Source: an archaeon (GTDB lineage: Archaea; Iainarchaeota; Iainarchaeia; Iainarchaeales; Iainarchaeaceae). Taken from it: DNA of 64,000 nucleotides. The DNA is taken from assembly GCA_035289625.1 (NCBI GenBank), contig DATDWP010000021.1:16053-80052 (forward strand). Reading direction: 5' to 3'. The notes under the pieces are model-generated. The model was not told the DNA's origin. It ran no database searches and saw only the letters and a program-made list of their open reading frames with translations. Positions 5,108-63,094 of the stretch are shown here, one piece after another (the stretch's first letter is position 1; every line of letters starts with the position of its first letter). Position numbers and translations under genes: made by a program.

Positions 5108-7036
5108 TTACCCGCGCTTATAAATCGTAACTTGCGGGTTTTCAAAAACCTTTGCAAGGGAGGGGTCGGAATCGAGGGAATTGTTGCCAATTAGTTTTTC
5201 ATACTCCCCAACCCAAACAAAATCAATCCTTGCCGGAGGGTTTTGCGGGTCTGAATTTTCATATATTGAAATTATCCGCATGGCCGCTTCATGCGAGTAG
5301 AAGAAAATATTCCCCTCTTTTCCGTTTTCCCTAATTTCTTTCTGCACATCCTGCGGCCAGGAGGCAATCTGATCTTCAAACTTCTTTTCTGACCAGACAC
5401 CGGTTGCGTGATAGAGGAAATGGAACGGGAAATTTGCCGCAAGCGCTTTTTCATGCAATAGCAAATCCTGTTCACTTGCAACAGGCCCAGTTACAGAATG
5501 AATGCTAAGAGTATCTTTTTGCGGAGTAAACAGCCAATTGATTGTATCTTTTCTAACTCCAAAAAATTTGTAGGCAAAACCCACACGCTTCTCTATTTCA
5601 CCATTTTTTGCAGAAGTAAGAAAGCCATTTGGGTAGAATACATAAAGCCCGGTATCGGCACTTATCCGAGAATTTGTCTGGGCGCTAAGTGCGAGCACAA
5701 CATCTTCTTTTGAGGAATTTTCCTCAAGCCATTCAAGGGCCTGGCGCTGCTGCGGGGAAATTGTATATGCGGCGCAGCCGCTTTGAGCGCAACGAAGCTC
5801 AGTGTAGTGGAATTGCGTTACTAGCCCTAAGAAAAGTGCGGCAAGAAGCAAAATTGCCCACGCACTATTTTTGATTTGATCTGGAACTGTAATTTTTGGA
5901 AAGGCAACTTTCAGAGAACCGGCTTTCCATAGGGCAAAAAGGGAAACCAAGAAAATTAGCGACATTTGATCGGCAACCTGGTTTTGCCAGTGCAATACTG
6001 CAAGATTCACCCCGAAAACTACCTGCAAATTCATCCCGACAACTGACCCTAAAAGGATGCCGGCAAGCAAAACCCTTTGCATATCCCATTTTTTTATAAG
6101 AAAATATGCCCCCGCTAAAAGGGCAAGGTATTTGAGGGTGGGGACTGTATAATAGGGGCGGCTTACCTCCCCAAAACCTAAGCGAAGAACCAAATCACCG
6201 GAAAGACCTGAAAAAGCATTTAGGGCAAGATTTGCAAGGTATGGAAGGGCCACAATTGCTGCAGTTGCAAAAATAAGAATTGAGTGCAGTGGCAATGATT
6301 TTAGAATATTTCCAGCCCCCGCTTTTTTTGAATTCCATTCATATAAAAGCACAATAAATAGCCCTGCAAAAAATGCAACGTAGTAAAAGTAGACGTAAAC
6401 TAAAAGCCCTGCAAAAAAGCCCGCAACAACCGCATCTTTTGCCTTTTTTGTTTCAAATGACTTTAAGGTAAAATAAATCGCCAGCAAAAAGAACGGAAGT
6501 GTTGCTATCGGGGAATGGAACCTATCTATGAAAAGGTATGTCGAGGACAGAAGTTTTGAAATATTTACCAAAAGTTCTGGTATCCAGGGACTGAAGAGAT
6601 CAAAAATATTCGGAAAGAGGGTAAAGAGCGCGCTTATTGCAATGCGATTGCCATTGCCTTTTACCCACAGGCCAAACAATAACCATGACAGCAAAAAAAT
6701 CGCAACCGCCCCGGCAAATTTCATTATTATTATCCAATAATTGCCGACAAGCGAATATAGTGCCCCTGCAATAAGGAATGGAAGCCACTCACGCGAGGGA
6801 ATGGTTTTGGATAGTTCGAAGACCTGGGGCTCGGTTACCCAACCGTGCAAAGAAACATGCTTTACAATGGCCGAATACATTGTAAAATCAAGAGTGCGTA
6901 TTGTTGGGCTAAAATAGTGGAATGGGTAAAACTGCTCCCCAGCGAGCGCCATCACAAGAACATCCGAGAGAACTATTATCGCTGCAAGTGAAAATGCGCA
7001 AAGCACCAAAATTACTTTCCAGCCCCTACCTTTCAC
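5108..7036 (-). CDS. Polytopic membrane protein (about 12 predicted TM helices) with a ~200-aa C-terminal soluble domain; candidate GT-C-type glycosyltransferase or glycan-processing membrane enzyme
   Basis: 642 aa. Hydrophobic segments run through the first ~430 aa and are followed by a hydrophilic tail. It is the last gene of the minus-strand glyco-operon. The function is inferred from architecture only. Confidence 0.45.
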   Translation of the reverse strand: MKGRGWKVILVLCAFSLAAIIVLSDVLVMALAGEQFYPFHYFSPTIRTLDFTMYSAIVKHVSLHGWVTEPQVFELSKTIPSREWLPFLIAGALYSLVGNYWIIIMKFAGAVAIFLLSWLLFGLWVKGNGNRIAISALFTLFPNIFDLFSPWIPELLVNISKLLSSTYLFIDRFHSPIATLPFFLLAIYFTLKSFETKKAKDAVVAGFFAGLLVYVYFYYVAFFAGLFIVLLYEWNSKKAGAGNILKSLPLHSILIFATAAIVALPYLANLALNAFSGLSGDLVLRLGFGEVSRPYYTVPTLKYLALLAGAYFLIKKWDMQRVLLAGILLGSVVGMNLQVVFGVNLAVLHWQNQVADQMSLIFLVSLFALWKAGSLKVAFPKITVPDQIKNSAWAILLLAALFLGLVTQFHYTELRCAQSGCAAYTISPQQRQALEWLEENSSKEDVVLALSAQTNSRISADTGLYVFYPNGFLTSAKNGEIEKRVGFAYKFFGVRKDTINWLFTPQKDTLSIHSVTGPVASEQDLLLHEKALAANFPFHFLYHATGVWSEKKFEDQIASWPQDVQKEIRENGKEGNIFFYSHEAAMRIISIYENSDPQNPPARIDFVWVGEYEKLIGNNSLDSDPSLAKVFENPQVTIYKRG

Positions 7037-7053
7037 CTAAATTCACCTAATTT

Positions 7054-7710
7054 TCAAACTCCAATATTTTGCAAAATATTTCCCAAAGCCCTCTTATTTG
7101 CGCCAAAAACAAACTTTAAGCCTGATTTTTTTGCGCAGGCCCTATCATCCAAATCCCCCACAAAAACAACATCACCTCTTTTGCACCCAAGCCTTTTCAG
7201 GGCAAGTTTTATTATACGCCCATCCGGTTTTTCCCTTCCGGCCTCTTCTGAAGTTATCACAAAATCAACTAAATGCGCTATTCCTAAAGAAAGGCACTTT
7301 TCGAGCTGTATTTGGGTTGTGAGGTTGGTTACAATCGCAACTTTGAGGCCTGCGCGTTTGCAGCCCGATAGGAATTTTTTCATTTCTTTGGTTATTTTCA
7401 TTTTTGAAAAATAAGCCCTCCAGAATTGCCTTTCCAGACCCAAAGTAAATTTTACATTTGTTCGCCCTTCAAAAATTTCAACTGCCCTTTTAATATACAA
7501 CAGGCGCGAATGAGAAGCTGCCTGGCCTTTTGTATTTGCCTTTATTTGAGATCTTGCGGATTCATAAATTTTTTCCGCCCTCTTTTTCCCGACCCCGTAC
7601 TTTTTTGAAAGGGCAAAAATTACTTTTTTGGAAGCAAAATTATTGCACACGCGATAGCCATACAACGTATCATCAAGATCTAGCAGGATTGCGCGAATCA
7701 TCCGCTCCAC
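7054..7710 (-). CDS. HAD-superfamily hydrolase/phosphatase
   Basis: N-terminal HAD motif I ILLDLDDTLY and C-terminal VGDLDD (motif IV-like). 218 aa. Confidence 0.7.
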   Translation of the reverse strand: MERMIRAILLDLDDTLYGYRVCNNFASKKVIFALSKKYGVGKKRAEKIYESARSQIKANTKGQAASHSRLLYIKRAVEIFEGRTNVKFTLGLERQFWRAYFSKMKITKEMKKFLSGCKRAGLKVAIVTNLTTQIQLEKCLSLGIAHLVDFVITSEEAGREKPDGRIIKLALKRLGCKRGDVVFVGDLDDRACAKKSGLKFVFGANKRALGNILQNIGV

Positions 7711-8300
7711 CTATCTGTTAGCCCTTTCGAACACATTATAGCGTCAATGTGAATTTTATTTTTCTCCAGGTATTTTTTATATTTTTCAATTTTCTGCGGC
7801 TGGCCCCATCTCTCAGGGCTTACCAGGAAAATCTTAAACCCCGCGCGCCTTATTTTTTTATAGGCATTTTTTGTGAGGGGGAGCTTTGTAAAAGTATCAA
7901 CCCAAACCCAATTGACTTTCCCTTTTAACGCAAGCGAATTTTCAAGTGTCTCAAATTCCGAGAAACGCACCGCAATGTTTTTCTCCCCCTTGGCCAAAAG
8001 TTTTAAAATTGCCGGAAAAGTAATGTCCAAGAAAAAATAATCCCTTATCCCGTGCCTTTTAACAATATCAAGGACCTCGTTTTCAATCCCCTCGGTCTTT
8101 ACATTAAGAAGCATAAATTTGTGCTTATAATTTGCACAATAGTCCTCAAATAAATCCCCGTTTTCAAACGGGTCGTGGTGCAGAATTAATTTTTTGCCAT
8201 CGTTGCGTATATCTATTTCAACGCCCAACTCGTGCGGAATTGTAAGCAGCTCCCCTATGGTATTTACCGCATGCACAACCATTATTGGCTTTTTTTCCAT
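7698..8300 (-). CDS. Glycerophosphodiester phosphodiesterase (GDPD)/PI-PLC-like TIM-barrel protein (tentative)
   Basis: VVHAVNTIGEL...GVEIDIRNDGKKLILHHDPF resembles the GDPD H..N.. / E.D.. / HD motif series. 200 aa. The start may be the internal Met at 8282. Confidence 0.4.
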   Translation of the reverse strand: MEKKPIMVVHAVNTIGELLTIPHELGVEIDIRNDGKKLILHHDPFENGDLFEDYCANYKHKFMLLNVKTEGIENEVLDIVKRHGIRDYFFLDITFPAILKLLAKGEKNIAVRFSEFETLENSLALKGKVNWVWVDTFTKLPLTKNAYKKIRRAGFKIFLVSPERWGQPQKIEKYKKYLEKNKIHIDAIMCSKGLTDRWSG

Positions 8301-10531
8301 AAATGCGCCCTCAAGTTTAATGTAAAATCAATTGTCCTTTTAATGAATCGCATCCTTGACCCAAGCCCCAAATTCCAGCTCGATTTTCCGAACTTCCGAG
8401 CGCCAAATGCAACAGGGAAGCGAATTATTTTAAGGCCGGCCTCTTTTGCCTTATAGAGCGCATATAGATCAAAAGAGAAATCATCCGGGCCATCTAAAAT
8501 ATGTGGCAAAAAAGATGAGTGGAAAAGATTTGGCTGCGCATTAATATCCTCCAGCCATCTCCCAAGCACCATGCTGCAAAATACTGACATCCCAAAAGAG
8601 AAAAAAGAATCCGAAAAACCCCTCCCTAACCTTCTCCCTTTGACAAAAACATTTCCCCCTCTTGCTTTTGCGATTTCAAATGCCCTGAAAACATCTTGCG
8701 GATCTGCCTGCAAATCTGCATGTGTCCAGCACAAGAACTTTCCCCCCGCCTTGTCCAGCCCTTTTTTTACCCCATTTCCATACCCAATATTGGAAGCAAC
8801 ATCAACTTTTTTTATAAAATTGTATTTGCTGAAACAAAGCCGTTCGAGCACTTGTGCACTCTTATCGGTCGAACCGTTATTTACAAGTATTAATTCAAAA
8901 TTTCCCTTGTGAAACCGCGAGAATTTTTCCGCAAGCAGCGGCAAATTTTTTTCCTCATTATAGCACGGAATTACAACAGAAAGCCCCACTAGCCCAAAAT
9001 ACTTCTGCCAATACTCATATGTGTTCAGATCATCCGGTGTTCCCAAAACAACATATTTTTCAACTTCAAAAACCTTCACTTTTCCCCCCTTTTCAATTAA
9101 TTCATTTGGCACGGCATCTGCATAAAACTCATTATTTATGCTTCTTCCCTTTACAATCATTTCCTTAGCGCTATCAAAAAAATCCCCGGCTTTTTTGTAA
9201 TAAAATATCCCGCAAACAGCATGGTCTTGGGTTGGATTTTTGGATATTGGGATTTTGCAAAAAACCCATTCAACACCATTCCCTTTTGCCGTCTTTACCC
9301 ACCCATACGCTTCCGGTTTCCTTCTGACCGCAGCATTATTCCTGAATGTCCAAATAATAGAACCAACTCCCTTTTCCTTAACCGCGCTTAGGAGTTTTTT
9401 GCCGCTAAACAGCACTTTATTGTCGCACGCCGCAATAAGAAGCGCGGAATTTTTATCAATAAAATTTTGTGCAAGAAGGCAGGTTGACGCCTGCCCTGTT
9501 GTTGGCTTTTGAGCAACCACTATTTTTGCGCGGGGGAAATATTTTTTGATTTCTGAATCTACTGAAAATTTTTCCACATGCTCTTTTGAGCAGACAAAAA
9601 CATGCTCATCACATTGCGGCAACGATTCTAGCGCATGAACAAACATGGGTTTTCCAAAAATATCTATAAGCGGCTTTGCCTCTTTATATCCGGCATCGGC
9701 AAATCTCTTTCCGGCCCCTGCCATTGGAATCAGAAGAGTTGTTTTGGGCGGCATTTTTACAAGATTTGTTTTTTTGCTTTGCGCAAAATATTCCGACCAA
9801 TAAATGTACTCCTCAAGATCTGACGGTGTGCCCCACTGCAGAAAATGCCTGACATCATAAACAAAAATACGCTTTCTGTCCCGCAGCAAGAGCCCATAAA
9901 CCGAACTCACATAATACTCACCGTTAACAGAAAGCCCGCTTTCCATAAGTCCTGAAAAATATTTTTTCAAAAGGGCGCCTGATGAAAAGAAATATGTGCC
10001 CGCTGAATGGTAGGATTTTGTCAAATCCTGCGTAAATGAGTGCTTTTCACGAATTTCGAGCAACTGCTTATTCGCATCAACCCTCATTCCCGCATACTTG
10101 TTTGGCCAGGTTAGATGCGGATGAAATGAACTATATCCGGTAATGCCACCGTCCCATTTGCCTGAAATGGCCTTTTTTACAAACGCCGCATAATCCCATG
10201 TCGCAAAAAAATCGCAATAATTCACGAGTACCGGCTCGTCATCTTTTATATGCAAGGCCGCCTGCATAACCGCATACACCGGCCCGAATTTGTGCTTTTC
10301 AATCCCTACTATTTTCCCGCGGGGGGACGATGCCAAGAGCACTTTTTTTAGCGGGGTTTTTTCCAAATGCTCTTTATTGCATATGAAAATGAAATCCTCC
10401 TCTTTTGGGAACATCCCGATTACATGCTCAATGATCGGCTTTCCGTCAACCTCAATGAGGGGCTTTATTTCCCTATACCCCCCATCCCTGAACCTTTTCC
10501 CTTCCCCCGACATTGGAATTACGATCTGCAT
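8282..10531 (-). CDS. Fusion protein: two sugar-phosphate nucleotidyltransferase-like domains plus a C-terminal family-2 glycosyltransferase
   Basis: NT-domain 1 IVIPMSGEGKRF, NT-domain 2 LLIPMAGAGKRFADAGYKEAKPL, then GT2 LSVVIPCYNEEKNLPLLAEKF...ELILVNNGSTDKS. 749 aa. Confidence 0.65.
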   Translation of the reverse strand: MQIVIPMSGEGKRFRDGGYREIKPLIEVDGKPIIEHVIGMFPKEEDFIFICNKEHLEKTPLKKVLLASSPRGKIVGIEKHKFGPVYAVMQAALHIKDDEPVLVNYCDFFATWDYAAFVKKAISGKWDGGITGYSSFHPHLTWPNKYAGMRVDANKQLLEIREKHSFTQDLTKSYHSAGTYFFSSGALLKKYFSGLMESGLSVNGEYYVSSVYGLLLRDRKRIFVYDVRHFLQWGTPSDLEEYIYWSEYFAQSKKTNLVKMPPKTTLLIPMAGAGKRFADAGYKEAKPLIDIFGKPMFVHALESLPQCDEHVFVCSKEHVEKFSVDSEIKKYFPRAKIVVAQKPTTGQASTCLLAQNFIDKNSALLIAACDNKVLFSGKKLLSAVKEKGVGSIIWTFRNNAAVRRKPEAYGWVKTAKGNGVEWVFCKIPISKNPTQDHAVCGIFYYKKAGDFFDSAKEMIVKGRSINNEFYADAVPNELIEKGGKVKVFEVEKYVVLGTPDDLNTYEYWQKYFGLVGLSVVIPCYNEEKNLPLLAEKFSRFHKGNFELILVNNGSTDKSAQVLERLCFSKYNFIKKVDVASNIGYGNGVKKGLDKAGGKFLCWTHADLQADPQDVFRAFEIAKARGGNVFVKGRRLGRGFSDSFFSFGMSVFCSMVLGRWLEDINAQPNLFHSSFLPHILDGPDDFSFDLYALYKAKEAGLKIIRFPVAFGARKFGKSSWNLGLGSRMRFIKRTIDFTLNLRAHLWKKSQ

Positions 10532-10533
10532 CC

Positions 10534-11490
10534 CTAAACCCCTTTTCTAAAGCTTTCAGATTCCATGCCCCTTAATTCGTTTACATTGTTTTTTGTCAAA
10601 AACTTTGGCCTGCCGTACTGCTCGATATTTAGAAGAACGCATAAATGCGCCAGGAAAACTTCAAGGACTTTGTTTCTTTTTTCCCCTGATTTTTCCAGTA
10701 TTTTAATTTTTGAGTCATTTACAATTTCTATATTCTGATTTTCCCCCGAAAAATTGCAATACACTGCGCAATCCGGGAACATATAGTCGGAAAAACCGTT
10801 TTTTAGATTCGCCAGCCCCTCAATAAAATAAATTCCGCCTGTCTTGCCCTCAACTTTCAAATTCTGCGGCAAGTAGAGAGCCACTCCTCTTGATTGCAGG
10901 TATCGCCCTGCAATTCCATCAAGTTCAATGGTTTTTTGGACAGATTCACCCATTTTATTGCACGAAACTATCAGGCCATGATTTTCAAGAATAAAAACGC
11001 CGCTCTTTCTTTTCCGCTCTTTTTCAAAAACAGCCACCGAGAGTTCAACCCCTGGAGTTTTGTATCCAACCCATTCAAAATCCGCATTTCCTAATGCATC
11101 TTTTGCAATATTTTGTGAATTTTGCGCGCAGCTAACGGAATTTATCAAAACAGAATGCGTATGCACAACAGAATTCCCCAGAACGGAATGGAACCCGGTT
11201 TCCATTGAAGCCACCTCATTCCCCTTTGTGCTTTTGCCAATAATTTCCGTGTAATTTTTTTCATTTGCAATGGAACTGTTTTCTGAAGCGCTTTTTAGAA
11301 ATGCACTGACTTTATTAAAATCCACATCTGCAATTCCCCCCTTCTCTGAAACATCTGCAAGGGTTATCCCTGACGCTTTAATGAGCATCCTGGATTTGTC
11401 TTTTATGGAAATATTTCCCCCGCCGGCCTGGACAAGATCTGGCCTTGAGCCGATTTTGCCGCAAGCATCCACTAGCTCTTTAGTTTGCAT
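10534..11490 (-). CDS. Class II aldolase/adducin-family protein (fuculose-1-P aldolase / ribulose-5-P 4-epimerase-like) with a ~100-aa C-terminal extension
   Basis: GGGNISIK, a metal-ligand His cluster (GFHS...VVHTHS) and ILENHGLIV. 318 aa. Confidence 0.6.
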   Translation of the reverse strand: MQTKELVDACGKIGSRPDLVQAGGGNISIKDKSRMLIKASGITLADVSEKGGIADVDFNKVSAFLKSASENSSIANEKNYTEIIGKSTKGNEVASMETGFHSVLGNSVVHTHSVLINSVSCAQNSQNIAKDALGNADFEWVGYKTPGVELSVAVFEKERKRKSGVFILENHGLIVSCNKMGESVQKTIELDGIAGRYLQSRGVALYLPQNLKVEGKTGGIYFIEGLANLKNGFSDYMFPDCAVYCNFSGENQNIEIVNDSKIKILEKSGEKRNKVLEVFLAHLCVLLNIEQYGRPKFLTKNNVNELRGMESESFRKGV

Positions 11491-13957
11491 TCTCTTCCCC
11501 TTTCCTTGCCTTCAGGCTCTCTGAAATCACCCAAAGGATCACTAATTGCACTGCCCCGTCAAGATCCTTTCTCCATACAACAGACCTGTTTTCAAGCACC
11601 TCTTCAAGGTTGGGAACAAGCAAATACGCAATTTCTGCCGCCTGCTCACTAGCCATCTTTCCGCTAAGCGTAATGTTTATAGTCCTCAGATCGCTATTGT
11701 AGTCCATGCCGGCGTTCATTTCTGTGCGCACATTCAGCGCCTCGACAAGTGCAGAGACATCAAATTTATTGTCAAGTGACAAAACAAGCATGAGACCATT
11801 CCCTTTTGGAATATAGCTCACTACGATATCTGCAAATCTCTTTTGAGGAGCAAGGAATGCTTTTGCGTCTTTCCCCCTCTTTTTCATGGACGCAATTACA
11901 TTTGAGGCCGAATATCCCCTCTCGGTTACATCGCGCTGTATTTTCCAGCTCTTTCTAAGGGATGGATGGGGATCCATGAATATCTTAATATCAAGCAGTT
12001 GCCTCATTTTTGTCAGATAAAATGAATGAAGGCCTGAGGCTATTATGAATTTTTTTGGCCAGACATATTTTTCCTTTGTAAATTTTCCCGTTGAATGGTC
12101 ATATTCACGGCGCATCAGCTTTTTTGAACCCTCAAGCGCCTCTATGGATTCGATGTCTTTGTGGAGAAAATTCCCGACCGGATTTAGATGGGTCAGGGTT
12201 TGCCAGTTTTTACTGCCCCTTTCCCATTTGTGCAAATCGTCCCCTTCCAGGAAAGTGATGTTATCTTGCCCAACAAGATCTGCAATAATAGAATTAGTGT
12301 AGCTCTTGCCGCTGCCAGAATCCCCGGATATTCCAATCGCCACCATGGATTTTTTATAGCGCAAATTTGCAATTATCCCGAATTTATACACAAAGTAAAT
12401 ATTTACAATCATAATTCCAATTAGAAGTGTCAGCGCAAAATTTGAGATGAACTGCGCATTAAGGCCAAATGCCTCAAAGATCGAGTACAGGTTTGGGAGG
12501 GTTGAAAACCCGCTAAACAAGGGCTGCAAAGAACCAGGCAGGTCCGCATCTTTACCCAAAAATAGGAAATAGAGCAAAAATAGGGCATTTATGCCCCAAT
12601 AAATCTTTTTTGAAATATTGTCATCCTTTACAAAAAAGTATGCAAGGAAAGGAATTACCCAAAAAAACCACCCTGGCCTTGCAGGAACCAATGTTATAAG
12701 TATTGTAAACACACCCGCAAATGCCATCATAAGCGCGTCTTGGTTAATATTTCTAAAATATGCAAGGCGCAGGAAAAAGAGGAACAAAACAAGGGGCACA
12801 ACAAAAATCACAAGGCCTGTTTGCCCAAATGGTATTTGCAGCAAGAATGCCAGCCACTGTTCTTCCGCGCCCAAAACAAGCTTTTGGTACCCTTGGGAAA
12901 AAATGAACGGCAGGATCAAAACCGCATATGCCCCTATTGCTACTGCAAAGTAGCTGATTGTTTTGCCTGCCAATTCCCTATTGCGCCATAAATACAGGAA
13001 AATGAAAGGGGCCGCAACAAAAATATTTGCCTTCGCGCTAAGAGCAATGCCCAGAACAAGTGCAGACGGGAGATATTTTTTATTTAGGAGCAGGTATACT
13101 GAAAGCAGGAGGAGGAAAATTGGGATCGCGTCCAACTGGCCGTGAAAATAACTTATATATAGTATTATTGGAGAGCACCAATAATACAGAAGAACAAGAT
13201 GCTCCTTTGTTTTTAGCAGTTTGATGAGGATATAGAATATCCCAATATCGGCAAGAAGCAGCGGGGCTTTTGCAAAAAAGAGCTGCAAAAAGCCATTTGA
13301 AAATATCGAAGGCGGAAGAAATGAGAAAAGAAAAGCCGGAAATGATACGGCAAGCAGCATTGTTGTTGAGTACGGAAAAGCCTTGAGTTCGCCCAGTTCA
13401 AAAAAGTGCTGGTAGGGGTTGGAAAAACCGGAAGAGACAAAGTAGTCAATGAATGGGATTGTCCCTTTCAAAATAAAATCCGAGCCGAAGAGAAATGAAA
13501 AAATTATTTTGACCAAAAGCACGGCGATAAAGAGGCGGCTGTGAAAAACTGGCGGCAAACTGATCTTGCGGAAGACCAAAAACTTTGAACCCAAAAAATT
13601 TGTCACGGTGGTTATTGCAATGGCCATGGCGTTTGCGGCAACTGCAACTATTCCAAAAGATTCCACAAGCATTTTTAGAAGGCTGAGGCCAAAAAAAAGC
13701 GAGAAAGTGTAAACCAGGAAATACTTTACAAGCTCTGCAAACTTTTCACCATTTGAGCCAAAAGTAAATTTTTTGTTCAGGCTAAAACCAAAAAGAACCC
13801 CCGCAAAGTAACCAACAGAGGCTGAGAGCAAATAATCAAGACCTGCAAAGTAAAGAAGAAGTATAAAAAGCGAGTAATTCAATATGGTTGAACCTAGGCC
13901 AACAACCGCAAACCGGAGGAACTCTGAACTCACCCCGCCAGACATAAAAAAAACCAA
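11480..13957 (-). CDS. Three-part fusion: N-terminal GtrA-like segment, polytopic membrane domain (GT-C/DUF2029-like), C-terminal P-loop nucleoside/sugar kinase domain (uridine kinase / phosphoribulokinase family)
   Basis: The N-terminus LRFAVVGLGSTILNYSLFILLLYFAGLDYLLSASVGYFAGVLFGFSLNKKFTFGS is GtrA-like. About 10 further TM segments follow. The C-terminus has a Walker A GISGDSGSGKS and a kinase-like core. 825 aa. Confidence 0.55.
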   Translation of the reverse strand: MVFFMSGGVSSEFLRFAVVGLGSTILNYSLFILLLYFAGLDYLLSASVGYFAGVLFGFSLNKKFTFGSNGEKFAELVKYFLVYTFSLFFGLSLLKMLVESFGIVAVAANAMAIAITTVTNFLGSKFLVFRKISLPPVFHSRLFIAVLLVKIIFSFLFGSDFILKGTIPFIDYFVSSGFSNPYQHFFELGELKAFPYSTTMLLAVSFPAFLFSFLPPSIFSNGFLQLFFAKAPLLLADIGIFYILIKLLKTKEHLVLLYYWCSPIILYISYFHGQLDAIPIFLLLLSVYLLLNKKYLPSALVLGIALSAKANIFVAAPFIFLYLWRNRELAGKTISYFAVAIGAYAVLILPFIFSQGYQKLVLGAEEQWLAFLLQIPFGQTGLVIFVVPLVLFLFFLRLAYFRNINQDALMMAFAGVFTILITLVPARPGWFFWVIPFLAYFFVKDDNISKKIYWGINALFLLYFLFLGKDADLPGSLQPLFSGFSTLPNLYSIFEAFGLNAQFISNFALTLLIGIMIVNIYFVYKFGIIANLRYKKSMVAIGISGDSGSGKSYTNSIIADLVGQDNITFLEGDDLHKWERGSKNWQTLTHLNPVGNFLHKDIESIEALEGSKKLMRREYDHSTGKFTKEKYVWPKKFIIASGLHSFYLTKMRQLLDIKIFMDPHPSLRKSWKIQRDVTERGYSASNVIASMKKRGKDAKAFLAPQKRFADIVVSYIPKGNGLMLVLSLDNKFDVSALVEALNVRTEMNAGMDYNSDLRTINITLSGKMASEQAAEIAYLLVPNLEEVLENRSVVWRKDLDGAVQLVILWVISESLKARKGEENAN

Positions 13958-14229
13958 AAACCCTGTTTTTAGATATAGTGCTGGTTAAGGCTTATTAACC
14001 ATTCCAAAAATCGAATTTAAACCCCTTGACTTTGCAAAAAAAACAAGCCCCGGCTACCATTGAAGACGCCCCAAAGGCCATTTAGCCCCAAAATCCATTG
14101 ACTTGACAATATGCCTCATTTTCGGCTTCCCTAGGTTTGACTGACTAGAGGCGATTTGATAAATGTTGAAAATAATATTTTCAATCAGCCACAACCCAGC
14201 CCCAAACTTTTAATTACCTACCAAGCCAA

Positions 14230-28696: not shown

Positions 28697-30304
28697 TCAA
28701 ATTTCTTTGAACTGCTCGCGCAGTTTCATCTCCCTTCTCTTGCGATTGTACCCCAGCGCGAATTTGTGCACAGCATCACGCACGGACCTGATAAATAACA
28801 TCATGCGGGAGTTCTTGTCAAATTGTTTAGGCTCATCAAAACCCGGCAGATAGATTTCCTCGTTCTTTTTTGCAAGCGCAATTATCGGGATTTTTAACCC
28901 CAGTTCTCTTAGAGCGTCAAGGCTAGCATTTAATTGGCCAGCTCCGCCATCAATAATTATGAGCGAAGGGAACTGCGCACTCTCTTGCCGGAGCCTTGAG
29001 TATCTTCTGCTAACAATTTCTTTCATTGATGCAAAATCATCGTTTTTGCCCTGAACTGTTTTGATCTTGAACTTGCGGTACTCTTTTTTATCAGGTTTTC
29101 CGTTTGTAAATCGCACCATTGCCCCAACCACGTGGTCATAGTTAAGGTTTGAAACATCAAAGCACTCGATAATTGAAGGTATATCAGGTAAATTCAGAGC
29201 ATCTTTTATAAGAGCAAGAACAGAACCTTCACCAATATTTAGCACTGCATTTTTTTGTGCCATATTAACAAGGCCGAGTTTTTCGCCCCTTTTAGGATAT
29301 ATCAATGAGACATATGTCCCTTTTATTTTTGAGAGGTATGCTTCAACTACTTCGCGCTCGCTCTCCTCTGCCCAGAATTTTTCACTTACAAGTATTTCAT
29401 TTGGAGGTGTGTGGGTTGAATAATAGCGCGTTATGAATTCTTCAAACAATCCTTCGTGGTAATCAAAGGTGAATTCCTTTTTTCCCGATATTACACCGCG
29501 CGAAATTGTAAACATTTCCACAATACACTTCGGTTCATTTTTAACAAGTGCCAAAACATCCTGGTCATATCGCTTTACAAGTTCAACTTTCTGGCGCTCA
29601 TCAAGATTCTCTATTGCCTCTATTTGGTGTTTTTTTTCAAGCGCGCGCTCAAACTTTAACTCTTTTGAAGCGATTTGCATTTCATCTTTTAATTTTTCAA
29701 TAACTCCGCTACGTTCCCCTTTCAAAAAATCATGAACGCCTTGCACCTGTTCTAAATATTGCTCTTGCGATACATTCCCAATGCAAGGAGCAGTACAGAG
29801 CCCAATGTGATAATTAAGGCACTCTTTTTTTGGCAAAATCCTGCAGGTCCTGATTTTGTATAGTTGCACTGCAAGATTTAGAAGCTGAACCCTAGCAAAT
29901 CCATCAACATATGGCCCAAAATACTTTCCATCAGGAGTAACTTTTCTAGTGGAGAGTATGCGCGGAAATTTTTCTGCAGTCAATTTGATGTATGCAAAAG
30001 TTTTGGAATCCTTTAGGTCAATATTGTATTTTGGGGAGTGCTTTTTTATCATATTATTTTCCAAAAGCAGCGCTTCCACCTCATTATCAACAGCAACAAA
30101 TTCTATATTTGCAATGCGCAAAACCATCAGGGCAATTCGCGGATAATGGTTTTTATTCGTAAAATAGCTAGATACCCGTTTTTTCAAATTTTTCGCTTTA
30201 CCAATATAAATTATTTCATTTTGCAAATCCCTAAAAAAATACACGCCCGGTTCTTGCGGAATTTTACTAAAATCAACTTCCCCCTTTTCCCCAACCTCTA
30301 TCAT
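28697..30304 (-). CDS. uvrC: Excinuclease ABC subunit C
   Basis: N-terminal GIY-YIG (GVYFFRDLQNEIIYIGKAKNLKKRVSSYF), UvrBC-interaction region, C-terminal RNase H-like and HhH regions. 535 aa. Overlaps the uvrA stop by 4 nt. Confidence 0.85.
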   Translation of the reverse strand: MIEVGEKGEVDFSKIPQEPGVYFFRDLQNEIIYIGKAKNLKKRVSSYFTNKNHYPRIALMVLRIANIEFVAVDNEVEALLLENNMIKKHSPKYNIDLKDSKTFAYIKLTAEKFPRILSTRKVTPDGKYFGPYVDGFARVQLLNLAVQLYKIRTCRILPKKECLNYHIGLCTAPCIGNVSQEQYLEQVQGVHDFLKGERSGVIEKLKDEMQIASKELKFERALEKKHQIEAIENLDERQKVELVKRYDQDVLALVKNEPKCIVEMFTISRGVISGKKEFTFDYHEGLFEEFITRYYSTHTPPNEILVSEKFWAEESEREVVEAYLSKIKGTYVSLIYPKRGEKLGLVNMAQKNAVLNIGEGSVLALIKDALNLPDIPSIIECFDVSNLNYDHVVGAMVRFTNGKPDKKEYRKFKIKTVQGKNDDFASMKEIVSRRYSRLRQESAQFPSLIIIDGGAGQLNASLDALRELGLKIPIIALAKKNEEIYLPGFDEPKQFDKNSRMMLFIRSVRDAVHKFALGYNRKRREMKLREQFKEI

Positions 30305-33183: not shown

Positions 33184-33233
33184 ACGTTCCCTCTATTCGC
33201 AACAATTAAAATTTGCTTCTATCACGAGGACTT

Positions 33234-33812
33234 TTACCTCGGTTTCTGGGCAATGATTTTTATAACTTTTTTCCCTTTTGCGTATTCTCTTTGTGCATAT
33301 TTCGAGCCGCTTGCCTCAATTTCAGTCGGCTTGAATTCCCTTGCAATCACTTTAAAACCGGCATTACGCAAAAGTGGGATTATTTCCCGATCAATGTAGC
33401 GGTGCTCAAATGTGGTTAGCAGGAACTTTCCGCCCGGCACGAGTATTCTTTTGACTTCATTTATATAGCCCGGCAATGTTCTTTGAATCTCTGAAAAAGT
33501 CTGACCTGCAATGGCCGCTCTTTTTCGAATATCAGCCAGATTTGTTACATCTTTGCCATACGGGACATGATGGATGAAAAAATCAGCAATCACTGCAGGA
33601 ACTGAGGCTGATTCTATCTTTTCCGTCTCAGCCAATACATTTCCTTTGACATAGCCCATATTACTTGGCAGTTTATATCTTGGCTTTTGCAAATCCACAA
33701 CTTTCACAGTACCCGGAAGATTTTTTTTCAAGAGCCTTTGTGCAAATTTAAAAGCCCTCCCCTTTGTCGGCCCTTCCCCGAACGATACCATTTTTATTTT
33801 AGGTTTTTTCAC
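33234..33812 (-). CDS. Class I SAM-methyltransferase-like protein with degenerate motif I, embedded between uvrB and uvrA
   Basis: 192 aa. [12 protein letters not shown] in place of the GxGxG motif, motif-II-like [10 protein letters not shown] and motif-III-like [12 protein letters not shown]. Its stop overlaps the uvrB stop region (ATGA coupling). Confidence 0.4.
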
Positions 33813-38614: not shown

Positions 38615-38623
38615 TAATAAAAG

Positions 38624-38717
38624 TGGGAGAGCCCAGATTTGAACTGGGGTCGACACCAAATTGGAAGCGTTTACCTCTCCCCAAGGTGCCATACTAACCA
38701 AGCTATACTACTCCCCC
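38624..38717 (-). tRNA. Intron-containing tRNA, anticodon most likely UGG (Pro); ~20-nt intron 3' of the anticodon loop; no encoded CCA
   Basis: Reverse complement reads GGGGGAG-TA-GTAT...GGCAC-CTTGGG-[intron]-GTGTC-GA-CCCAG-TTCAAAT-CTGGG-CTCTCCC-A. Acceptor stem 7/7 (one G-U), canonical T-arm, 94 nt. T-rich tract follows on the minus strand. Confidence 0.6.
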
Positions 38718-42580: not shown

Positions 42581-42700
42581 TGGGATTGCCCGGATTTGAA
42601 CCGGGGTCGTAAGCTCATTTGAAGGCATTCTTGCAAAAGCACGTTTTGCCGAAAAACCCTCCCAAAGCTTATATGCTAGACCAGGCTACACCACAATCCC
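42581..42700 (-). tRNA. Intron-containing tRNA (~42-nt intron), anticodon most likely GGG (Pro) if the intron sits at the canonical 37/38 position
   Basis: Reverse complement GGGATTG-TG-GTGT-AGCCTGGTCTAGC-ATAT-AAGCT-TTGGGA[intron]G-AGCTT-ACGA-CCCGG-TTCAAAT-CCGGG-CAATCCC-A. Perfect 7-bp acceptor stem and canonical T-arm. Oligo-T tract immediately 3' on the minus strand. Confidence 0.55.
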
Positions 42701-49406: not shown

Positions 49407-50069
49407 GTGTTAGCAATGAAAGAACTACTAGCAGAACTTATCGGAACATTCATACTCGTTTTTGCAATCACTTCAACAATTGCAGGCACGCTTTCTATTT
49501 CAGCAACTTTTGGCCTACTTAACATTATTGCAATCGCCCTAACTGCAGGTCTTGCCCTTGCAGCAATTGCATACTCATTTGGCCAATTCTCCGGCGGCCA
49601 CTTTAACCCCGCAGTAACAATAGGCCTTTGCGCTGCCGGGAAATTCCCGGCAAAAAGTGTCCCATCATACCTGATTTTCCAATTTTTAGGAGCAATGCTA
49701 GCAAGTATTGCCCTCTTGCTACTAGCTGGGCCCGGGCAGCTTGGGGCAACAACTGCAGGAAACTTTGGACTTGGAGCTGCGCTTGCAGTTGAAACAGTTG
49801 CAACAGCACTTTTTGTAATAATTATTCTCTCGGTTACAAAAAATAAAGAAAACGCAAACCACGCTCCGCTTGCAATCGGATTCTATTTGCTTGTTGCGCA
49901 CCTTTATGCAATCCCATTTTCAGGTGCCTCACTAAACCCCGCGCGCTCATTAGGGCCCGCGCTACTAACTGGCGGGGCTGCACTTTCTGAACTGTGGATT
50001 TATTTTGCAGGGCCAATACTCGGAGCAATAATAGGCGCTTTGATATTCAAGCATCTGCTTGAGAAGTAA
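49407..50069 (+). CDS. aqpM: MIP-family aquaporin/aquaglyceroporin
   Basis: Two NPA boxes (SGGHFNPAVT and SLNPARSLGP), six TM helices, 220 aa. Confidence 0.85.
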   Translation: MLAMKELLAELIGTFILVFAITSTIAGTLSISATFGLLNIIAIALTAGLALAAIAYSFGQFSGGHFNPAVTIGLCAAGKFPAKSVPSYLIFQFLGAMLASIALLLLAGPGQLGATTAGNFGLGAALAVETVATALFVIIILSVTKNKENANHAPLAIGFYLLVAHLYAIPFSGASLNPARSLGPALLTGGAALSELWIYFAGPILGAIIGALIFKHLLEK

Positions 50070-50071
50070 AT

Positions 50072-50974: not shown

Positions 50975-51043
50975 AATATCACCAATTAAGGTTTCCTAGT
51001 TAATTTAGGGCATTTTAAAATAATAAAAGTTTTTTACTAAATT

Positions 51044-55478: not shown

Positions 55479-55530
55479 CAACTCTGAAACTGACAGATCA
55501 GTTTTTATACCTCAAAAACACACTTGATTC

Positions 55531-55977: not shown

Positions 55978-55985
55978 AAATAAAT

Positions 55986-63074: not shown

Positions 63075-63094
63075 AACCTAAATCATTCACCCTA

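What the first reader, a model, noticed from the sequence alone, without database searches (positions are those of the whole stretch)
5108..13957. Nine-kb minus-strand operon of glycoconjugate-type enzymes with three atypical domain fusions: candidate undescribed envelope glycosylation / polyol-phosphate pathway
Six consecutive, overlapping or near-abutting minus-strand genes encode, in transcription order: (1) a GtrA-like segment fused to a ~10-TM membrane domain and a C-terminal P-loop kinase (uridine kinase/PRK-like, GISGDSGSGKS); (2) a class II aldolase / ribulose-5-P-epimerase-like protein with an extra C-terminal domain; (3) two sugar-phosphate nucleotidyltransferase-like domains plus a GT2 glycosyltransferase; (4) a GDPD-like phosphodiesterase; (5) a HAD phosphatase; (6) a 642-aa GT-C-like polytopic protein with an extracytoplasmic C-terminal domain. 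Read together these suggest a self-contained route: phosphorylate and isomerise a sugar or polyol, nucleotide-activate it, transfer it to a lipid carrier (GT2), flip it (GtrA), then transfer or process it outside the membrane (GT-C-like, GDPD, HAD). That route resembles the GtrABC and CDP-ribitol/CDP-glycerol (TarI/TarJ, LicC) modules, but the three fusions (GtrA+membrane+kinase, NT+NT+GT2, aldolase+extension) are not standard architectures.
Basis: partly seen in the sequence, partly recalled or inferred. Interest (0 to 1): 0.75.

Follow-up and report, generated by a model that had tools for sequence, protein, structure and literature searches.

The report
Kinase-fused membrane sugar-transfer gene cassette
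This six-gene archaeal operon is one copy of a widespread but undescribed gene cassette, also found in many bacteria and on an E. coli plasmid, that appears to turn the Calvin-cycle-type intermediate ribulose bisphosphate into a lipid-linked five-carbon sugar for decorating the cell surface.

Summary

The GT2 / GtrA / GT-C lipid-carrier logic holds, but three points need correcting:
- The kinase is a phosphoribulokinase, not a uridine kinase.
- The HAD protein's nearest characterised relative is ribulose-1,5-bisphosphate 5-phosphatase.
- The GDPD and HAD proteins are cytoplasmic, and no reductase is present, so a polyol-phosphate route is unlikely.

The operon is one copy of a conserved cassette: GT-C fused to PRK, HAD, a GDPD-type enzyme, two nucleotidyltransferases, GT2, GtrA, and usually a class II aldolase-like enzyme. 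It occurs in at least 509 species-level genomes of archaea and bacteria, including cultured strains and an E. coli IncR plasmid. I found no published description.

Best model (inferred): Ru5P -> RuBP -> ribulose-1-phosphate -> nucleotide-activated pentose or pentulose -> polyprenyl-phosphate sugar -> flipped -> transferred outside by GT-C. The identity of the sugar and the roles of the GDPD step and second nucleotidyltransferase are unresolved. I class it as a new variant of a known kind.

The parts
13571..13915 (-). GtrA-family flippase segment (residues 15-129 of the 825-aa protein)
   Evidence: Pfam PF04138 E 4.6e-22. It is a separate gene in many homologous loci, e.g. L003, L028, L060, L080 and the E. 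coli plasmid.
12368..13552 (-). GT-C-type polytopic glycosyltransferase domain (residues 136-530), roughly 11-13 hydrophobic segments
   Evidence: Weak ALG6/8 hit for the window protein (E 1.6e-4). Across the family: GT87 in 5 of 21 members (4e-7), ALG6/8 in 2, ALG3 in 1. Conserved FPY..M, AD and HGQ.D..P motifs. The exhaustive search finds 1,035 representative clusters, nearly all fused to PRK.
11483..12355 (-). Phosphoribulokinase-type P-loop kinase domain (residues 535-825), predicted cytoplasmic
   Evidence: NCBIfam PRK07429 phosphoribulokinase E 2.2e-54, against uridine kinase 8e-21. PDB: cyanobacterial and archaeal PRKs 1e-35 for the single sequence and 1.6e-60 for the family profile covering 2-257 of 311. 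Invariant D573, R580, Y619, H621, R675, D676 and R680 map onto the PRK catalytic dyad Asp57/His105 (PMC9978339).
10534..11490 (-). Class II aldolase/epimerase-like protein (domain residues 5-194) with a poorly conserved C-terminal extension of about 110 aa
   Evidence: Pfam PF00596 E 6.9e-17. Best NCBIfam hits are the aldolase domain of bifunctional rhamnulose-1-P aldolase/SDR proteins. E97, H110, H112 and H171 (Glu plus three His) are conserved in 68 homologues. Present in 69 of 83 loci, absent from the Bacteroidota variant. Fused to PRK in three CPR loci.
9767..10531 (-). Nucleotidyltransferase domain 1 (residues 1-255 of the 749-aa protein)
   Evidence: NTP_transferase and GlmU-type hits. 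The PMxGxGxRF...KP signature is at least 95% conserved in 72 homologues. It is the most conserved component (about 45-52% identity between archaea and bacteria). Present in 75 of 83 loci.
9023..9742 (-). Nucleotidyltransferase domain 2 (residues 264-503)
   Evidence: PF00483 E 4e-21; PDB 4evw E 3.8e-8. The catalytic signature is conserved. Present in 75 of 83 loci. It always lies between NT1 and GT2 when the domains are fused.
8285..8983 (-). GT2 polyprenyl-phosphate glycosyltransferase-like domain (residues 517-749), no TM segment
   Evidence: PF00535 E 2.9e-19; NCBIfam ArnC E 2.2e-13. Best PDB matches are GtrB sll0501, ArnC and DPMS. Present in 67 of 83 loci. It is a separate gene in the closest relatives.
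7698..8300 (-). p200: compact cytoplasmic enzyme of the GDPD/PLC-like phosphodiesterase superfamily
7054..7710 (-). HAD-IA phosphatase closest to ribulose-1,5-bisphosphate 5-phosphatase
   Evidence: NF053830 RUBPPhHalo E 2.3e-51 (175 bits, below the 330-bit equivalog cut-off), ahead of CTE7 at 106 bits. The same best hit is found for cassette HADs from Paenibacillus, Virgibacillus, Eudoraea, Kazan and Megaera (146-188 bits). The DxDxT motif is conserved. No TM segment or signal peptide.
5108..7036 (-). p642: second, lineage-specific GT-C-fold membrane glycosyltransferase with a soluble C-terminal domain of about 230 aa
   Evidence: No family hit. Only 8 homologue clusters, all DPANN/Diapherotrites-type. 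The top 25 Foldseek hits of the AF2 model are all GT-C (STT3 3.7e-9, PglB, DPY19, AftA, AglB, ArnT, Emb). Other lineages carry different polytopic proteins of 500-690 aa in the same place.
13958..14229 (.). Intergenic region shared with the divergent TruD gene; presumed promoter region of the operon
   Evidence: Read directly; A/T-rich stretches lie upstream of the start codon. Not tested further, because the tools do not cover archaeal promoters.

Best explanation
The operon is the archaeal form of a conserved, horizontally mobile cassette for decorating a cell-surface acceptor outside the membrane. It combines a three-component lipid-carrier system with its own sugar-supply branch that starts from ribulose 5-phosphate.

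Proposed steps:
1. The PRK domain, fused to the cytoplasmic end of the GT-C membrane protein, phosphorylates Ru5P to ribulose 1,5-bisphosphate.
2. The HAD phosphatase removes the 5-phosphate to give ribulose 1-phosphate. This moves the phosphate from C5 to C1 and frees O5 so that a furanose ring can close.
3. Where present, the class II aldolase-like enzyme epimerises the pentulose 1-phosphate as an optional tailoring step.
4. The two nucleotidyltransferases and the GDPD-type enzyme together produce a nucleotide-activated glycosyl donor. My preferred chemistry is: NT1 activates the 1-phosphate; the GDPD/PLC-like enzyme cyclises it to a 1,2-cyclic phosphate that opens to the anomeric 2-phosphate; NT2 then makes NDP-pentulofuranose.
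5. GT2 transfers the sugar to polyprenyl phosphate.
6. GtrA flips it across the membrane.
7. The fused GT-C, together with a second lineage-specific GT-C (p642 here), transfers it to a surface glycan, lipid or protein.

Status of the evidence: family assignments, intact catalytic motifs and co-conservation are shown. Every enzymatic step, the order of the steps in step 4, the identity of the sugar and the acceptor are inferred.
For: - **PRK identity:**, with catalytic residues invariant (PMC9978339).
- **HAD:** nearest to the experimentally characterised RuBP 5-phosphatase (Sato 2022, PMC9700705) in archaeal and bacterial cassettes alike.
- **GT2:** nearest to GtrB, ArnC and DPMS. GtrA is found by Pfam.
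- **GT-C:** family hits across the fusion family and a GT-C fold for p642.
- **Co-occurrence in 83 loci:** NT1 75, NT2 75, aldolase 69, GT2 67, p200 62, HAD 56. 59 loci carry at least 7 of 8 core domains and 46 of those have them all on one strand.
- **Fusions in varying combinations:** GT-C-PRK 80 of 82, NT1-NT2 34 of 75, GtrA-GT-C 11, NT2-GT2 4, PRK-aldolase 3.
- **Both NT domains keep catalytic signatures**, and NT2 is always the one next to GT2.
- **A GDPD-type enzyme is kept even when p200 is replaced**, whereas the aldolase is dispensable.
- **Self-contained module:** the whole unit sits as about 9 kb on an E. coli IncR plasmid.
- **Polysaccharide context:** it lies inside a polysaccharide locus with wzm/wzt-like genes, gmd and fcl in Azospirillum and next to two STT3/AglB genes in a Woesearchaeote.
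- **Tailoring enzymes:** TylF-type O-methyltransferases and a carbamoyltransferase occur inside some cassettes.
- **Chemical precedent (from my own knowledge):** fructose 1,6-bisphosphate activated at the 1-phosphate cyclises to the 1,2-cyclic phosphate, which opens to fructose 2,6-bisphosphate. Enzymes of the GDPD/PLC/SMase D superfamily form and open cyclic phosphodiesters.
Against: - No enzyme activity was tested.
- The PRK and HAD scores are below NCBIfam's equivalog cut-offs (185 vs 236 bits; 175 vs 330 bits), so substrate specificity may differ.
- HAD was found in only 56 of 83 loci, though many loci are truncated.
- A ketose 1-phosphate is not an anomeric phosphate, so a GT2-type transfer needs an extra activation step that has no enzymatic precedent.
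- The two NT domains could instead form a heterodimer that catalyses a single step.
- No complete E. coli genome other than the two plasmid carriers shows DNA similarity. There is therefore no link so far to the xylulose-containing O95/O97 antigens, although those searches would miss divergent homologues.
- The number and parity of TM segments in the fusion were not established.
Confidence: 0.55

Rival explanations
1. The donor is an aldopentofuranose (ribofuranose or arabinofuranose). RuBP or Ru1P is isomerised to an aldopentose 1-phosphate or 1,5-bisphosphate by the aldolase-like or GDPD-like TIM-barrel enzyme. HAD removes the 5-phosphate, following the logic of GmhB in GDP-heptose synthesis. 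One NT pair makes NDP-pentofuranose, and GT2/GtrA/GT-C deliver it. This would be a nucleotide-sugar alternative to the PRPP-based routes to lipid-linked Ribf/Araf.
For: It uses the same PRK, HAD, NT, GT2, GtrA and GT-C evidence. Extracytoplasmic pentofuranose addition by three-component systems is established (PMC11127046). p642's structural neighbours include the arabinofuranosyltransferase AftA. Ribulose-phosphate 3-epimerase and HisA-type TIM barrels are secondary structural neighbours of p200.
Confidence: 0.15
2. The modification is a phosphodiester-linked pentulose phosphate, teichoic-acid-like. One NT makes a common NDP-hexose for GT2 to load onto polyprenyl phosphate. The other NT makes CDP-1-pentulose from Ru1P. 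The GDPD-like enzyme acts as a phosphotransferase that attaches pentulose phosphate to the lipid-linked hexose before it is flipped and transferred by GT-C.
For: It explains two active NTs together with an enzyme of the phosphodiesterase superfamily. NT2 shows weak similarity to cytidylyltransferases of polyol and inositol phosphates (IspD, IPCT). GDPD/PLD-type enzymes can catalyse transphosphatidylation (general knowledge).
Against: I know of no GDPD-fold enzyme that builds glycan phosphodiesters; known transferases for that are of the LicD, TagF or LtaS types, and none is in the cassette. NT1 and NT2 are paralogues closer to each other than to known hexose-1-P enzymes.
Confidence: 0.15
3. 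One reading: a polyol-phosphate or generic sugar pathway resembling CDP-ribitol/CDP-glycerol (TarI/TarJ, LicC), with GDPD and HAD processing the product outside the membrane.
Against: No cassette variant examined has a reductase or dehydrogenase. GDPD and HAD lack signal peptides and TM segments. The kinase is PRK-type, not a polyol or choline kinase. No TagF, LicD or CDP-alcohol transferase is present.
Confidence: 0.1
4. Two unrelated modules sit side by side by chance: a soluble catabolic bypass like the haloarchaeal non-carboxylating pentose bisphosphate pathway (PRK, RuBP phosphatase and Ru1P aldolase giving DHAP plus glycolaldehyde), and an ordinary GtrABC-like glucosylation system.
For: A HAD RuBP phosphatase paired with a class II aldolase is exactly the operon pair described in haloarchaea (PMC9700705). 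The window aldolase gives a weak hit to the Ru1P aldolase model (E 4e-7).
Against: PRK is covalently fused to the GT-C in 80 of 82 loci, and in three loci also to the aldolase. All parts travel together across phyla and on plasmids. The aldolase scores far below the Ru1P aldolase cut-off (30 vs 300 bits) and is missing from variants that keep PRK and HAD. This model leaves the two NTs and the GDPD without a substrate.
Confidence: 0.05

Closest known systems
Three-component extracytoplasmic glycosylation systems: GtrA/GtrB/GtrC of Shigella/Salmonella, CsbB/GtcA/YfhO of Gram-positives, ArnC/ArnEF/ArnT
   Same: A GT2 polyprenyl-phosphate glycosyltransferase, a GtrA-type flippase and a GT-C transferase encoded together. 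The GT2's nearest structures are GtrB, ArnC and DPMS.
   Different: Known systems draw on a housekeeping UDP-sugar, or on the Arn pathway. This cassette carries its own five-enzyme supply branch (PRK, HAD, GDPD-type, two NTs, with or without the aldolase-like enzyme). The GT-C is fused to a kinase, and the GT2 has no TM anchor.
PRPP-based pentofuranose three-component systems: mycobacterial DPA/arabinan pathway and Citrobacter GT136 system (Kelly et al. 2024, PMC11127046)
   Same: A lipid-phosphate-linked C5 sugar is made in the cytoplasm from a bisphosphorylated pentose, with a phosphatase removing the 5-phosphate. It is then flipped and used by GT-C enzymes. Optional epimerases diversify the sugar.
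   Different: This cassette has no UbiA-like phosphoribosyltransferase, no MATE flippase and no DprE-type epimerase. Entry is through Ru5P/RuBP and nucleotidyltransferases plus GT2, not through PRPP.
Non-carboxylating pentose bisphosphate pathway of haloarchaea (Sato et al. 2022, PMC9700705)
   Same: A HAD-family RuBP 5-phosphatase-like enzyme and a class II aldolase-family enzyme are encoded together, with RuBP and Ru1P as intermediates.
   Different: There, RuBP comes from nucleosides through R15P isomerase and ends as DHAP plus glycolaldehyde (catabolism). Here, RuBP would come from PRK, the aldolase-like protein is not an orthologue of Ru1P aldolase, and the products feed NT/GT2/GT-C enzymes (biosynthesis).
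[quoted passage not shown]
   Same: The same logic: a sugar phosphate is converted to a 1,n-bisphosphate by a kinase, a HAD phosphatase removes the distal phosphate, and a nucleotidyltransferase activates the product.
   Different: The kinase family differs (GHMP versus P-loop PRK), the substrate is a ketopentose rather than an aldoheptose, and this cassette adds a GDPD-type enzyme and a second NT.
Phosphoribulokinase of the Calvin cycle and of methanogens (PDB 6kev, 6hzk, 9qko, 5b3f)
   Same: About 35-40% identity over the catalytic core, with the P-loop, the catalytic Asp/His dyad and the Arg residues conserved.
   Different: It is fused to a membrane glycosyltransferase, it occurs in heterotrophs and on a plasmid without Rubisco in the cassette, its C-terminal 100 residues have diverged, and it scores below the equivalog cut-off.

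Membership tests
Three-component (GtrABC-type) extracytoplasmic glycosylation system | GT2-family polyprenyl-phosphate glycosyltransferase (GtrB/ArnC/DPMS type) | tested here: met
   PF00535 E 2.9e-19; NCBIfam ArnC 2.2e-13; best PDB hits are GtrB 5ekp, ArnC 9hwj and DPMS 5mlz. This is sequence-level evidence only.
Three-component (GtrABC-type) extracytoplasmic glycosylation system | GtrA-family small membrane flippase | tested here: met
   PF04138 E 4.6e-22, residues 15-129.
Three-component (GtrABC-type) extracytoplasmic glycosylation system | GT-C-fold transferase acting outside the membrane | tested here: met
   p642: the top 25 Foldseek hits are all GT-C. Fusion domain: GT87, ALG6/8 and ALG3 Pfam hits in 8 of 21 family members, with the window copy below the cut-off. 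No structure was predicted for this domain.
Three-component (GtrABC-type) extracytoplasmic glycosylation system | Use of a polyprenyl-phosphate-linked monosaccharide donor to modify a surface polymer | not testable with these tools
   This needs lipid and glycan analysis.
Phosphoribulokinase (plant/cyanobacterial/archaeal type) | P-loop, catalytic Asp/His dyad and Ru5P-phosphate-binding Arg residues | tested here: met
   G542-K551, D573, R580, Y619, H621, R675, D676 and R680 are invariant in 21 family members and at least 95% conserved in 80. The dyad is defined in PMC9978339.
Phosphoribulokinase (plant/cyanobacterial/archaeal type) | Score above the curated family cut-off | tested here: not met
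   NF005655: 184.8 bits against a cut-off of 236, with only 5-188 of 326 model positions aligned for the single sequence. The family profile covers 2-257 of 311 residues of 9qko at 1.6e-60.
Phosphoribulokinase (plant/cyanobacterial/archaeal type) | ATP-dependent phosphorylation of Ru5P at C1 | not testable with these tools
   An enzyme assay is required.
Ribulose-1,5-bisphosphate 5-phosphatase (NF053830, haloarchaeal HAD) | HAD-IA fold with DxDxT and the downstream motifs | tested here: met
   PF13419 and PF00702 hits; the motifs are conserved in 55 homologues.
Ribulose-1,5-bisphosphate 5-phosphatase (NF053830, haloarchaeal HAD) | Equivalog-level similarity | tested here: not met
   175 bits (window) and 146-188 bits (five bacterial cassettes), against a cut-off of 330. 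It is nevertheless always the top hit, by 50-70 bits.
Class II aldolase/epimerase superfamily | Three-His metal site plus catalytic Glu | tested here: met
   PF00596: 62.4 bits against a cut-off of 22.2. E97, H110, H112 and H171 are conserved in 68 homologues. The specific reaction (aldolase, epimerase or dehydratase) is undetermined.
Ru1P aldolase (NF053831) | Equivalog-level similarity | tested here: not met
   29.6 bits against a cut-off of 300. The bacterial cassette homologues do not list this model at E <= 1e-6.
GDPD / PLC-like phosphodiesterase superfamily | TIM-barrel fold of the GDPD type | tested here: met
GDPD / PLC-like phosphodiesterase superfamily | Catalytic His-Arg, Glu-x-Asp and His-Asp motifs | tested here: inconclusive
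   H10-R11, E28/D30 and H42-D43 are invariant in 34 sequences and lie in the expected order on strands beta1 and beta2. A residue-by-residue superposition was not available.
GDPD / PLC-like phosphodiesterase superfamily | Match to the Pfam GDPD model PF03009 | tested here: not met
   p200 has no Pfam hit even at E <= 10. The replacement gene X in Bacteroidota cassettes does match, at 1e-26 to 1e-28.
PRPP-based pentofuranose three-component system (GT136 / DPA type) | UbiA-like polyprenyl-phosphate phosphoribosyltransferase | tested here: not met
   None of the six operon proteins has a UbiA hit. The only UbiA gene in the window is 36 kb away, at 50072-50974.
CDP-ribitol / CDP-glycerol polyol-phosphate modules (TarI/TarJ, LicC) | NAD(P)H-dependent reductase paired with a cytidylyltransferase, plus a TagF/LicD-type transferase | tested here: not met
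   Neither the operon nor any compact bacterial cassette examined has a reductase, TagF or LicD domain.

The most novel reading that the evidence does not exclude
The cassette is the first pathway for a nucleotide-activated ketopentofuranose (ribulo- or xylulofuranose) glycosyl donor. PRK and a RuBP 5-phosphatase move the phosphate from C5 to C1. A GDPD-type enzyme, working between two nucleotidyl transfers, then moves it to the anomeric C2 through a 1,2-cyclic phosphate. This would give phosphoribulokinase and RuBP a biosynthetic role outside carbon fixation and nucleotide salvage. It would also answer how pentuloses such as the Xulf of E. coli O95/O97, Yersinia, Campylobacter and Devosia glycans are activated.
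Probability: 0.2. Interest if true: 0.9.

Novelty: new variant of a known kind. Interest (0 to 1): 0.7.

Why it matters
- **A new role for PRK:** if the model holds, phosphoribulokinase and RuBP, textbook markers of the Calvin cycle, have a second and widespread role as entry points to a cell-surface sugar in heterotrophic bacteria and archaea. This affects how PRK genes in metagenomes are read; they are often taken as evidence of autotrophy.
- **An unexplained donor pathway:** the cassette defines a large, uncharacterised glycan-modification system of about 1,000 protein clusters and at least 509 species. Its donor pathway includes a GDPD-type enzyme and two nucleotidyltransferases, a combination with no described precedent.
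- **A possible link to pentulose activation:** how pentuloses in bacterial polysaccharides are activated is an open question, and this may bear on it.
- **Possible relevance to cell-cell contact:** the cassette occurs in many small-genome episymbionts and intracellular bacteria (DPANN, CPR, Rickettsiales, Dependentiae, Bdellovibrionales), where surface glycans probably mediate contact with hosts. Whether it is enriched in them was not measured against genome sampling.
- **Directly testable:** it is present on an E. coli plasmid and in cultured strains (Hirschia baltica ATCC 49814, Azospirillum brasilense, Eudoraea adriatica, Virgibacillus salarius).

Tried and rejected
- **Uridine kinase reading of the kinase:** rejected. 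PRK models score 30-40 orders of magnitude better.
- **Profile search of p200 against PDB sequences:** only noise.
- **Profile search of the fusion family against PDB sequences:** found PRKs but no GT-C, because the membrane domain is too divergent.
- **Phage search with p200:** no match.
- **Link to the E. coli Xulf serogroups:** megablast and blastn of the plasmid cassette against 5,426 complete E. coli genomes found only the two plasmid carriers. These DNA searches cannot see divergent homologues, so the question stays open.
- **Hirschia 753-aa 'GT2 family protein' as an NT-NT-GT2 fusion:** it is not. The NT-NT protein there is the 588-aa 'hypothetical'.
- **Common ancestry of the second membrane proteins in different lineages:** phmmer finds almost no similarity between them, so p642 is lineage-specific.
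- **Literature searches** for PRK-GT-C fusions, the gene combination, and activated pentuloses found no prior description.
- **Topology from family-averaged hydropathy:** too fragmented to fix the number of TM segments.

Full report
**1.

Gene junctions are -11, +2, -19, -13 and +17 nt. The flanking genes are unrelated: a divergent TruD upstream and a convergent MscL downstream. This is a discrete operon-like unit on an archaeal chromosome. The window has intron-length tRNAs, GatD/E, an ATP-dependent DNA ligase and an archaeal-type ProRS. The closest named relative of the large fusion protein is a Candidatus Iainarchaeum MAG, at 60-65% identity.

Pfam and NCBIfam confirm most of the domain calls:
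- GtrA and a PRK-family kinase in the 825-aa protein
- Aldolase_II in the 318-aa protein
- two nucleotidyltransferase domains plus GT2 in the 749-aa protein
- HAD in the 218-aa protein

**2. The two unsupported calls were right**

Gene 4 (p200):
- It belongs to a family of more than 1,164 clusters that are about 50% identical between archaea and bacteria and are almost always labelled hypothetical.
- H10-R11, E28-x-D30-x-R32 and H42-D43 are invariant.
- The AlphaFold model is very confident (pLDDT 96.7).
- Foldseek puts GDPDs first.
- PGAP independently names the bacterial orthologues "PI-PLC/GDPD family".

Gene 6 (p642):
- It has only eight homologue clusters, all DPANN-type.
- The top 25 structural matches of its model (pLDDT 78.9, pTM 0.83) are all GT-C glycosyltransferases: STT3, PglB, AglB, DPY19, AftA, ArnT, Emb and ALG3.
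- It is hydrophobic up to about residue 412, followed by a soluble C-terminal domain of about 230 residues.

**3. The kinase is a phosphoribulokinase, and the HAD protein points the same way**

Kinase:
- The domain scores E 2.2e-54 against an NCBIfam phosphoribulokinase model, versus 8e-21 for uridine kinase.
- Against PDB sequences, cyanobacterial, plant and archaeal PRKs score about 1e-35, versus 1e-10 for uridine kinases.
- With the family profile the gap is 1.6e-60 versus 1e-22, and the match covers nearly the whole PRK fold.
- The PRK catalytic dyad is Asp57/His105 in Chlamydomonas numbering (PMC9978339). It corresponds to D573 and H621.
- These two residues, with R580, Y619, R675, D676 and R680, are invariant in the family.

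HAD:
- Its best match is the model for ribulose-1,5-bisphosphate 5-phosphatase, at 175 bits versus 106 for the next family.
- That enzyme was characterised in haloarchaea, where it converts RuBP specifically to ribulose 1-phosphate (PMC9700705).
- The match does not come from shared archaeal ancestry. Cassette HADs from Paenibacillus, Virgibacillus, Eudoraea, a Kazan-group bacterium and a Rickettsiales symbiont all give the same best hit, at 146-188 bits.

Both scores are below the curated equivalog cut-offs. The claim is therefore "nearest characterised relative", not orthology.

The aldolase-like protein keeps the Glu plus three-His metal site. It is closest to the rhamnulose-1-phosphate aldolase domain of bifunctional aldolase/SDR proteins, which belong to a ketose-1-phosphate-binding family.

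**4. The operon is one instance of a large conserved cassette**

A scan of one genome per species found at least 509 loci that encode the GT-C+PRK protein. They include:
- DPANN archaea
- many CPR phyla
- Bacteroidota, including Eudoraea adriatica DSM 19308 and Zeaxanthinibacter enoshimensis DSM 18435
- Rickettsiales, Dependentiae, Omnitrophota, Bdellovibrionales and Myxococcales
- Paenibacillus and Virgibacillus salarius

In 83 loci, many of them truncated, the domains co-occur with the fusion as follows:

| Domain | Loci (of 83) |
|---|---|
| NT1 | 75 |
| NT2 | 75 |
| Aldolase | 69 |
| GT2 | 67 |
| p200 | 62 |
| HAD | 56 |
| GtrA | at least 35 |
| p642 | 6 |

Fifty-nine loci carry at least seven of the eight core domains.

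The parts are fused in changing combinations:

| Fusion | Fused / loci with both |
|---|---|
| GT-C-PRK | 80 / 82 |
| NT1-NT2 | 34 / 75 |
| GtrA-GT-C | 11 / 35 |
| NT2-GT2 | 4 / 67 |
| PRK-aldolase | 3 / 69 |

In the window's closest relatives, NT-NT and GT2 are separate overlapping genes. The 749-aa triple fusion is therefore recent and lineage-specific.

An exhaustive search with the GT-C domain alone finds 1,035 representative clusters. About 120 of the best 150 have the length expected for a kinase fusion.

The GT-C nature of this domain rests on Pfam hits in family members: GT87 (4e-7), ALG6/8 and ALG3. The window copy itself scores below the cut-off.

**5. Annotated and experimentally accessible copies**

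- **E. coli:** a p200 search of plasmids found the complete cassette on a 33-kb IncR plasmid (NZ_CP145712.1), next to IS26. The gene order is NT-NT, GtrA, GT2, PI-PLC/GDPD, "uridine kinase" (GT-C+PRK), HAD, class II aldolase and a 586-aa membrane protein. Only two of 5,426 complete E. coli genomes carry it, both on plasmids.
- **Azospirillum brasilense:** the cassette lies in a polysaccharide locus with ABC-transporter genes, gmd, fcl and GT1/GT4 genes.
- **Hirschia baltica ATCC 49814:** it is on plasmid pHbal01.
- **A Woesearchaeote:** it abuts two STT3/AglB genes.

**6. A variant shows which parts are core**

Five Bacteroidota loci lack both p200 and the aldolase. In the aldolase's position they carry a canonical Pfam GDPD protein (E about 1e-27). 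From this I draw two conclusions:
- A GDPD-type step is core. 67 of 83 loci have one form or the other, and most of the remaining loci are truncated.
- The aldolase-like enzyme is dispensable, as expected for a tailoring enzyme such as an epimerase.

TylF-type O-methyltransferases and a carbamoyltransferase inside some cassettes also look like sugar tailoring. Most cassettes have a second large polytopic protein, but these differ between lineages. The window's p642 is the DPANN version.

**7. Mechanism**

What is shown: the family assignments, the intact catalytic motifs in every domain, the cytoplasmic nature of the soluble enzymes, and the co-conservation. What follows is inferred.
1. PRK converts Ru5P to RuBP.
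2. HAD converts RuBP to Ru1P.
3. Activation yields an NDP-sugar.
4. GT2 loads the sugar onto polyprenyl phosphate.
5. GtrA flips it.
6. GT-C transfers it outside the membrane.

The PRK/HAD pair would move the phosphate from C5 to C1 and free O5, so that a 2-pentulose can close a furanose ring.

The puzzle is that a ketose 1-phosphate is not an anomeric phosphate, yet GT2 enzymes need an anomeric donor. The cassette's unusual extras may solve exactly this: two catalytically intact NTs and a phosphodiesterase from a superfamily that forms and opens cyclic phosphodiesters. My preferred sequence is:
- NT1 activates the 1-phosphate.
- The GDPD-type enzyme forms a 1,2-cyclic phosphate, releasing NMP.
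- The ring opens to the 2-phosphate.
- NT2 makes NDP-pentulofuranose.

The chemical precedent, recalled from my own knowledge, is the classical synthesis of fructose 2,6-bisphosphate from fructose 1,6-bisphosphate through the 1,2-cyclic phosphate. The domain order NT1-NT2-GT2 in the fused proteins fits this sequence of steps. This sub-model is speculative.

**8. Comparison with known systems, and novelty**

- The lipid-carrier half works like GtrABC, CsbB-GtcA-YfhO and Arn systems.
- The overall idea, a bisphosphorylated pentose leading to a lipid-linked C5 sugar used by GT-C enzymes, parallels the PRPP-based systems of mycobacteria and Citrobacter (PMC11127046). That paper does not mention ketoses or nucleotidyltransferases, and its defining UbiA-type synthase is absent here.
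- The PRK/HAD/aldolase trio echoes the haloarchaeal catabolic pathway, but is wired into biosynthesis.
- Reviews state that the precursor genes for xylulofuranose in E. coli O95/O97 are unknown (PMC7685785). Xylulose is also reported in Yersinia, Campylobacter, Eubacterium and Devosia glycans (PMC8707391).
- I found no paper describing this cassette or a PRK-GT-C fusion. The library does not include most subscription journals.

I class the finding as a new variant of a known kind: a three-component glycosylation system with an undescribed donor-supply branch.

**9. Verdict**

- **Observation:** confirmed.
- **Interpretation:** partly supported, and sharpened.
- **Interest:** 0.7. A kinase-fused GT-C that draws on RuBP is unexpected, the family is large and unstudied, and cultured or plasmid-borne copies make it directly testable.
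- **Main uncertainties:** the identity of the sugar, the chemistry of the GDPD and second NT steps, and the acceptor.

Noticed in passing
L084 (E. coli plasmid NZ_CP145712.1) 6022-14984; also NZ_JCAPUP010000005.1: The complete cassette sits on a 33-kb IncR plasmid next to IS26, in a human-stool E. coli from Bern. A 100% identical copy is on a plasmid of a bullfrog isolate. Only 2 of 5,426 complete E. coli genomes carry it.
   Followed up: partly
L041, L059, L061, L068, L076 (Bacteroidota loci), e.g. L061 12165-12881: A variant cassette lacks both p200 and the aldolase. It has a canonical Pfam GDPD gene between GT-C-PRK and NT1, and an unannotated membrane protein of about 530 aa after GT2.
   Followed up: partly
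L018 15425-16180, L027 7875-8588, L058 12147-13886: TylF-type O-methyltransferases and a NodU/CmcH-type carbamoyltransferase are inserted inside some cassettes. This suggests that the sugar is methylated or carbamoylated in those lineages.
   Followed up: no
L001 17369-22520 (Woesearchaeota GCA_016211245.1): Two large STT3/AglB oligosaccharyltransferase genes follow the cassette directly. This hints that the modified acceptor could be an N-glycan or its lipid-linked precursor in some archaea.
   Followed up: no
L086 (Hirschia baltica pHbal01) 9652-12185: A second glycosyltransferase + GtrA pair, together with a UDP-glucuronate decarboxylase (UDP-xylose synthase), lies beside the cassette. This looks like a parallel lipid-linked xylose system.
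   Followed up: no
L057, L063, L064 (Kaiserbacteria, Paceibacteria, Saccharibacteria); P0221 (1058 aa): In three CPR loci the aldolase-like protein is fused in frame to the GT-C-PRK protein. A 1,058-aa representative may be the same architecture.
   Followed up: partly
window 38623-38717 and 42581-42700: Two unusually long tRNA genes (95 nt tRNA-Pro by ARAGORN; 120 nt by Rfam only), consistent with archaeal introns. Each tool found only one of them.
   Followed up: no
window 53123-57119 and 57990-59876: Three asparaginase-family paralogues lie close together (one is GatD with its N-terminal domain), followed by GatE. One or two of the copies are surplus to the GatDE amidotransferase.
   Followed up: no
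window 28697-35788: A complete bacterial-type UvrA/UvrB/UvrC set on the archaeal chromosome, interrupted by a 192-aa ORF (33234-33812) that I did not annotate.
   Followed up: no
window 50001-52000 and 62001-64000: Two stretches with GC of about 0.34, against about 0.41 elsewhere. The first overlaps a UbiA-family prenyltransferase and an AsnC/MarR-type regulator.
   Followed up: no
P0087: A p200 homologue (51% identity) comes from a eukaryotic transcriptome assembly (EukProt TRINITY contig). It may derive from a bacterial symbiont or contaminant.
   Followed up: no
L017, L019, L025 ('uncultured Gammaproteobacteria'), L047 ('Peregrinibacteria'), L010 ('Pseudomonadales'): Several MAG labels look inconsistent with the content of the locus. 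L047 is nearly identical in layout and scores to an archaeal locus (L026). L017, L019 and L025 share the gene order of CPR loci. Binning or taxonomy errors are likely.
   Followed up: no
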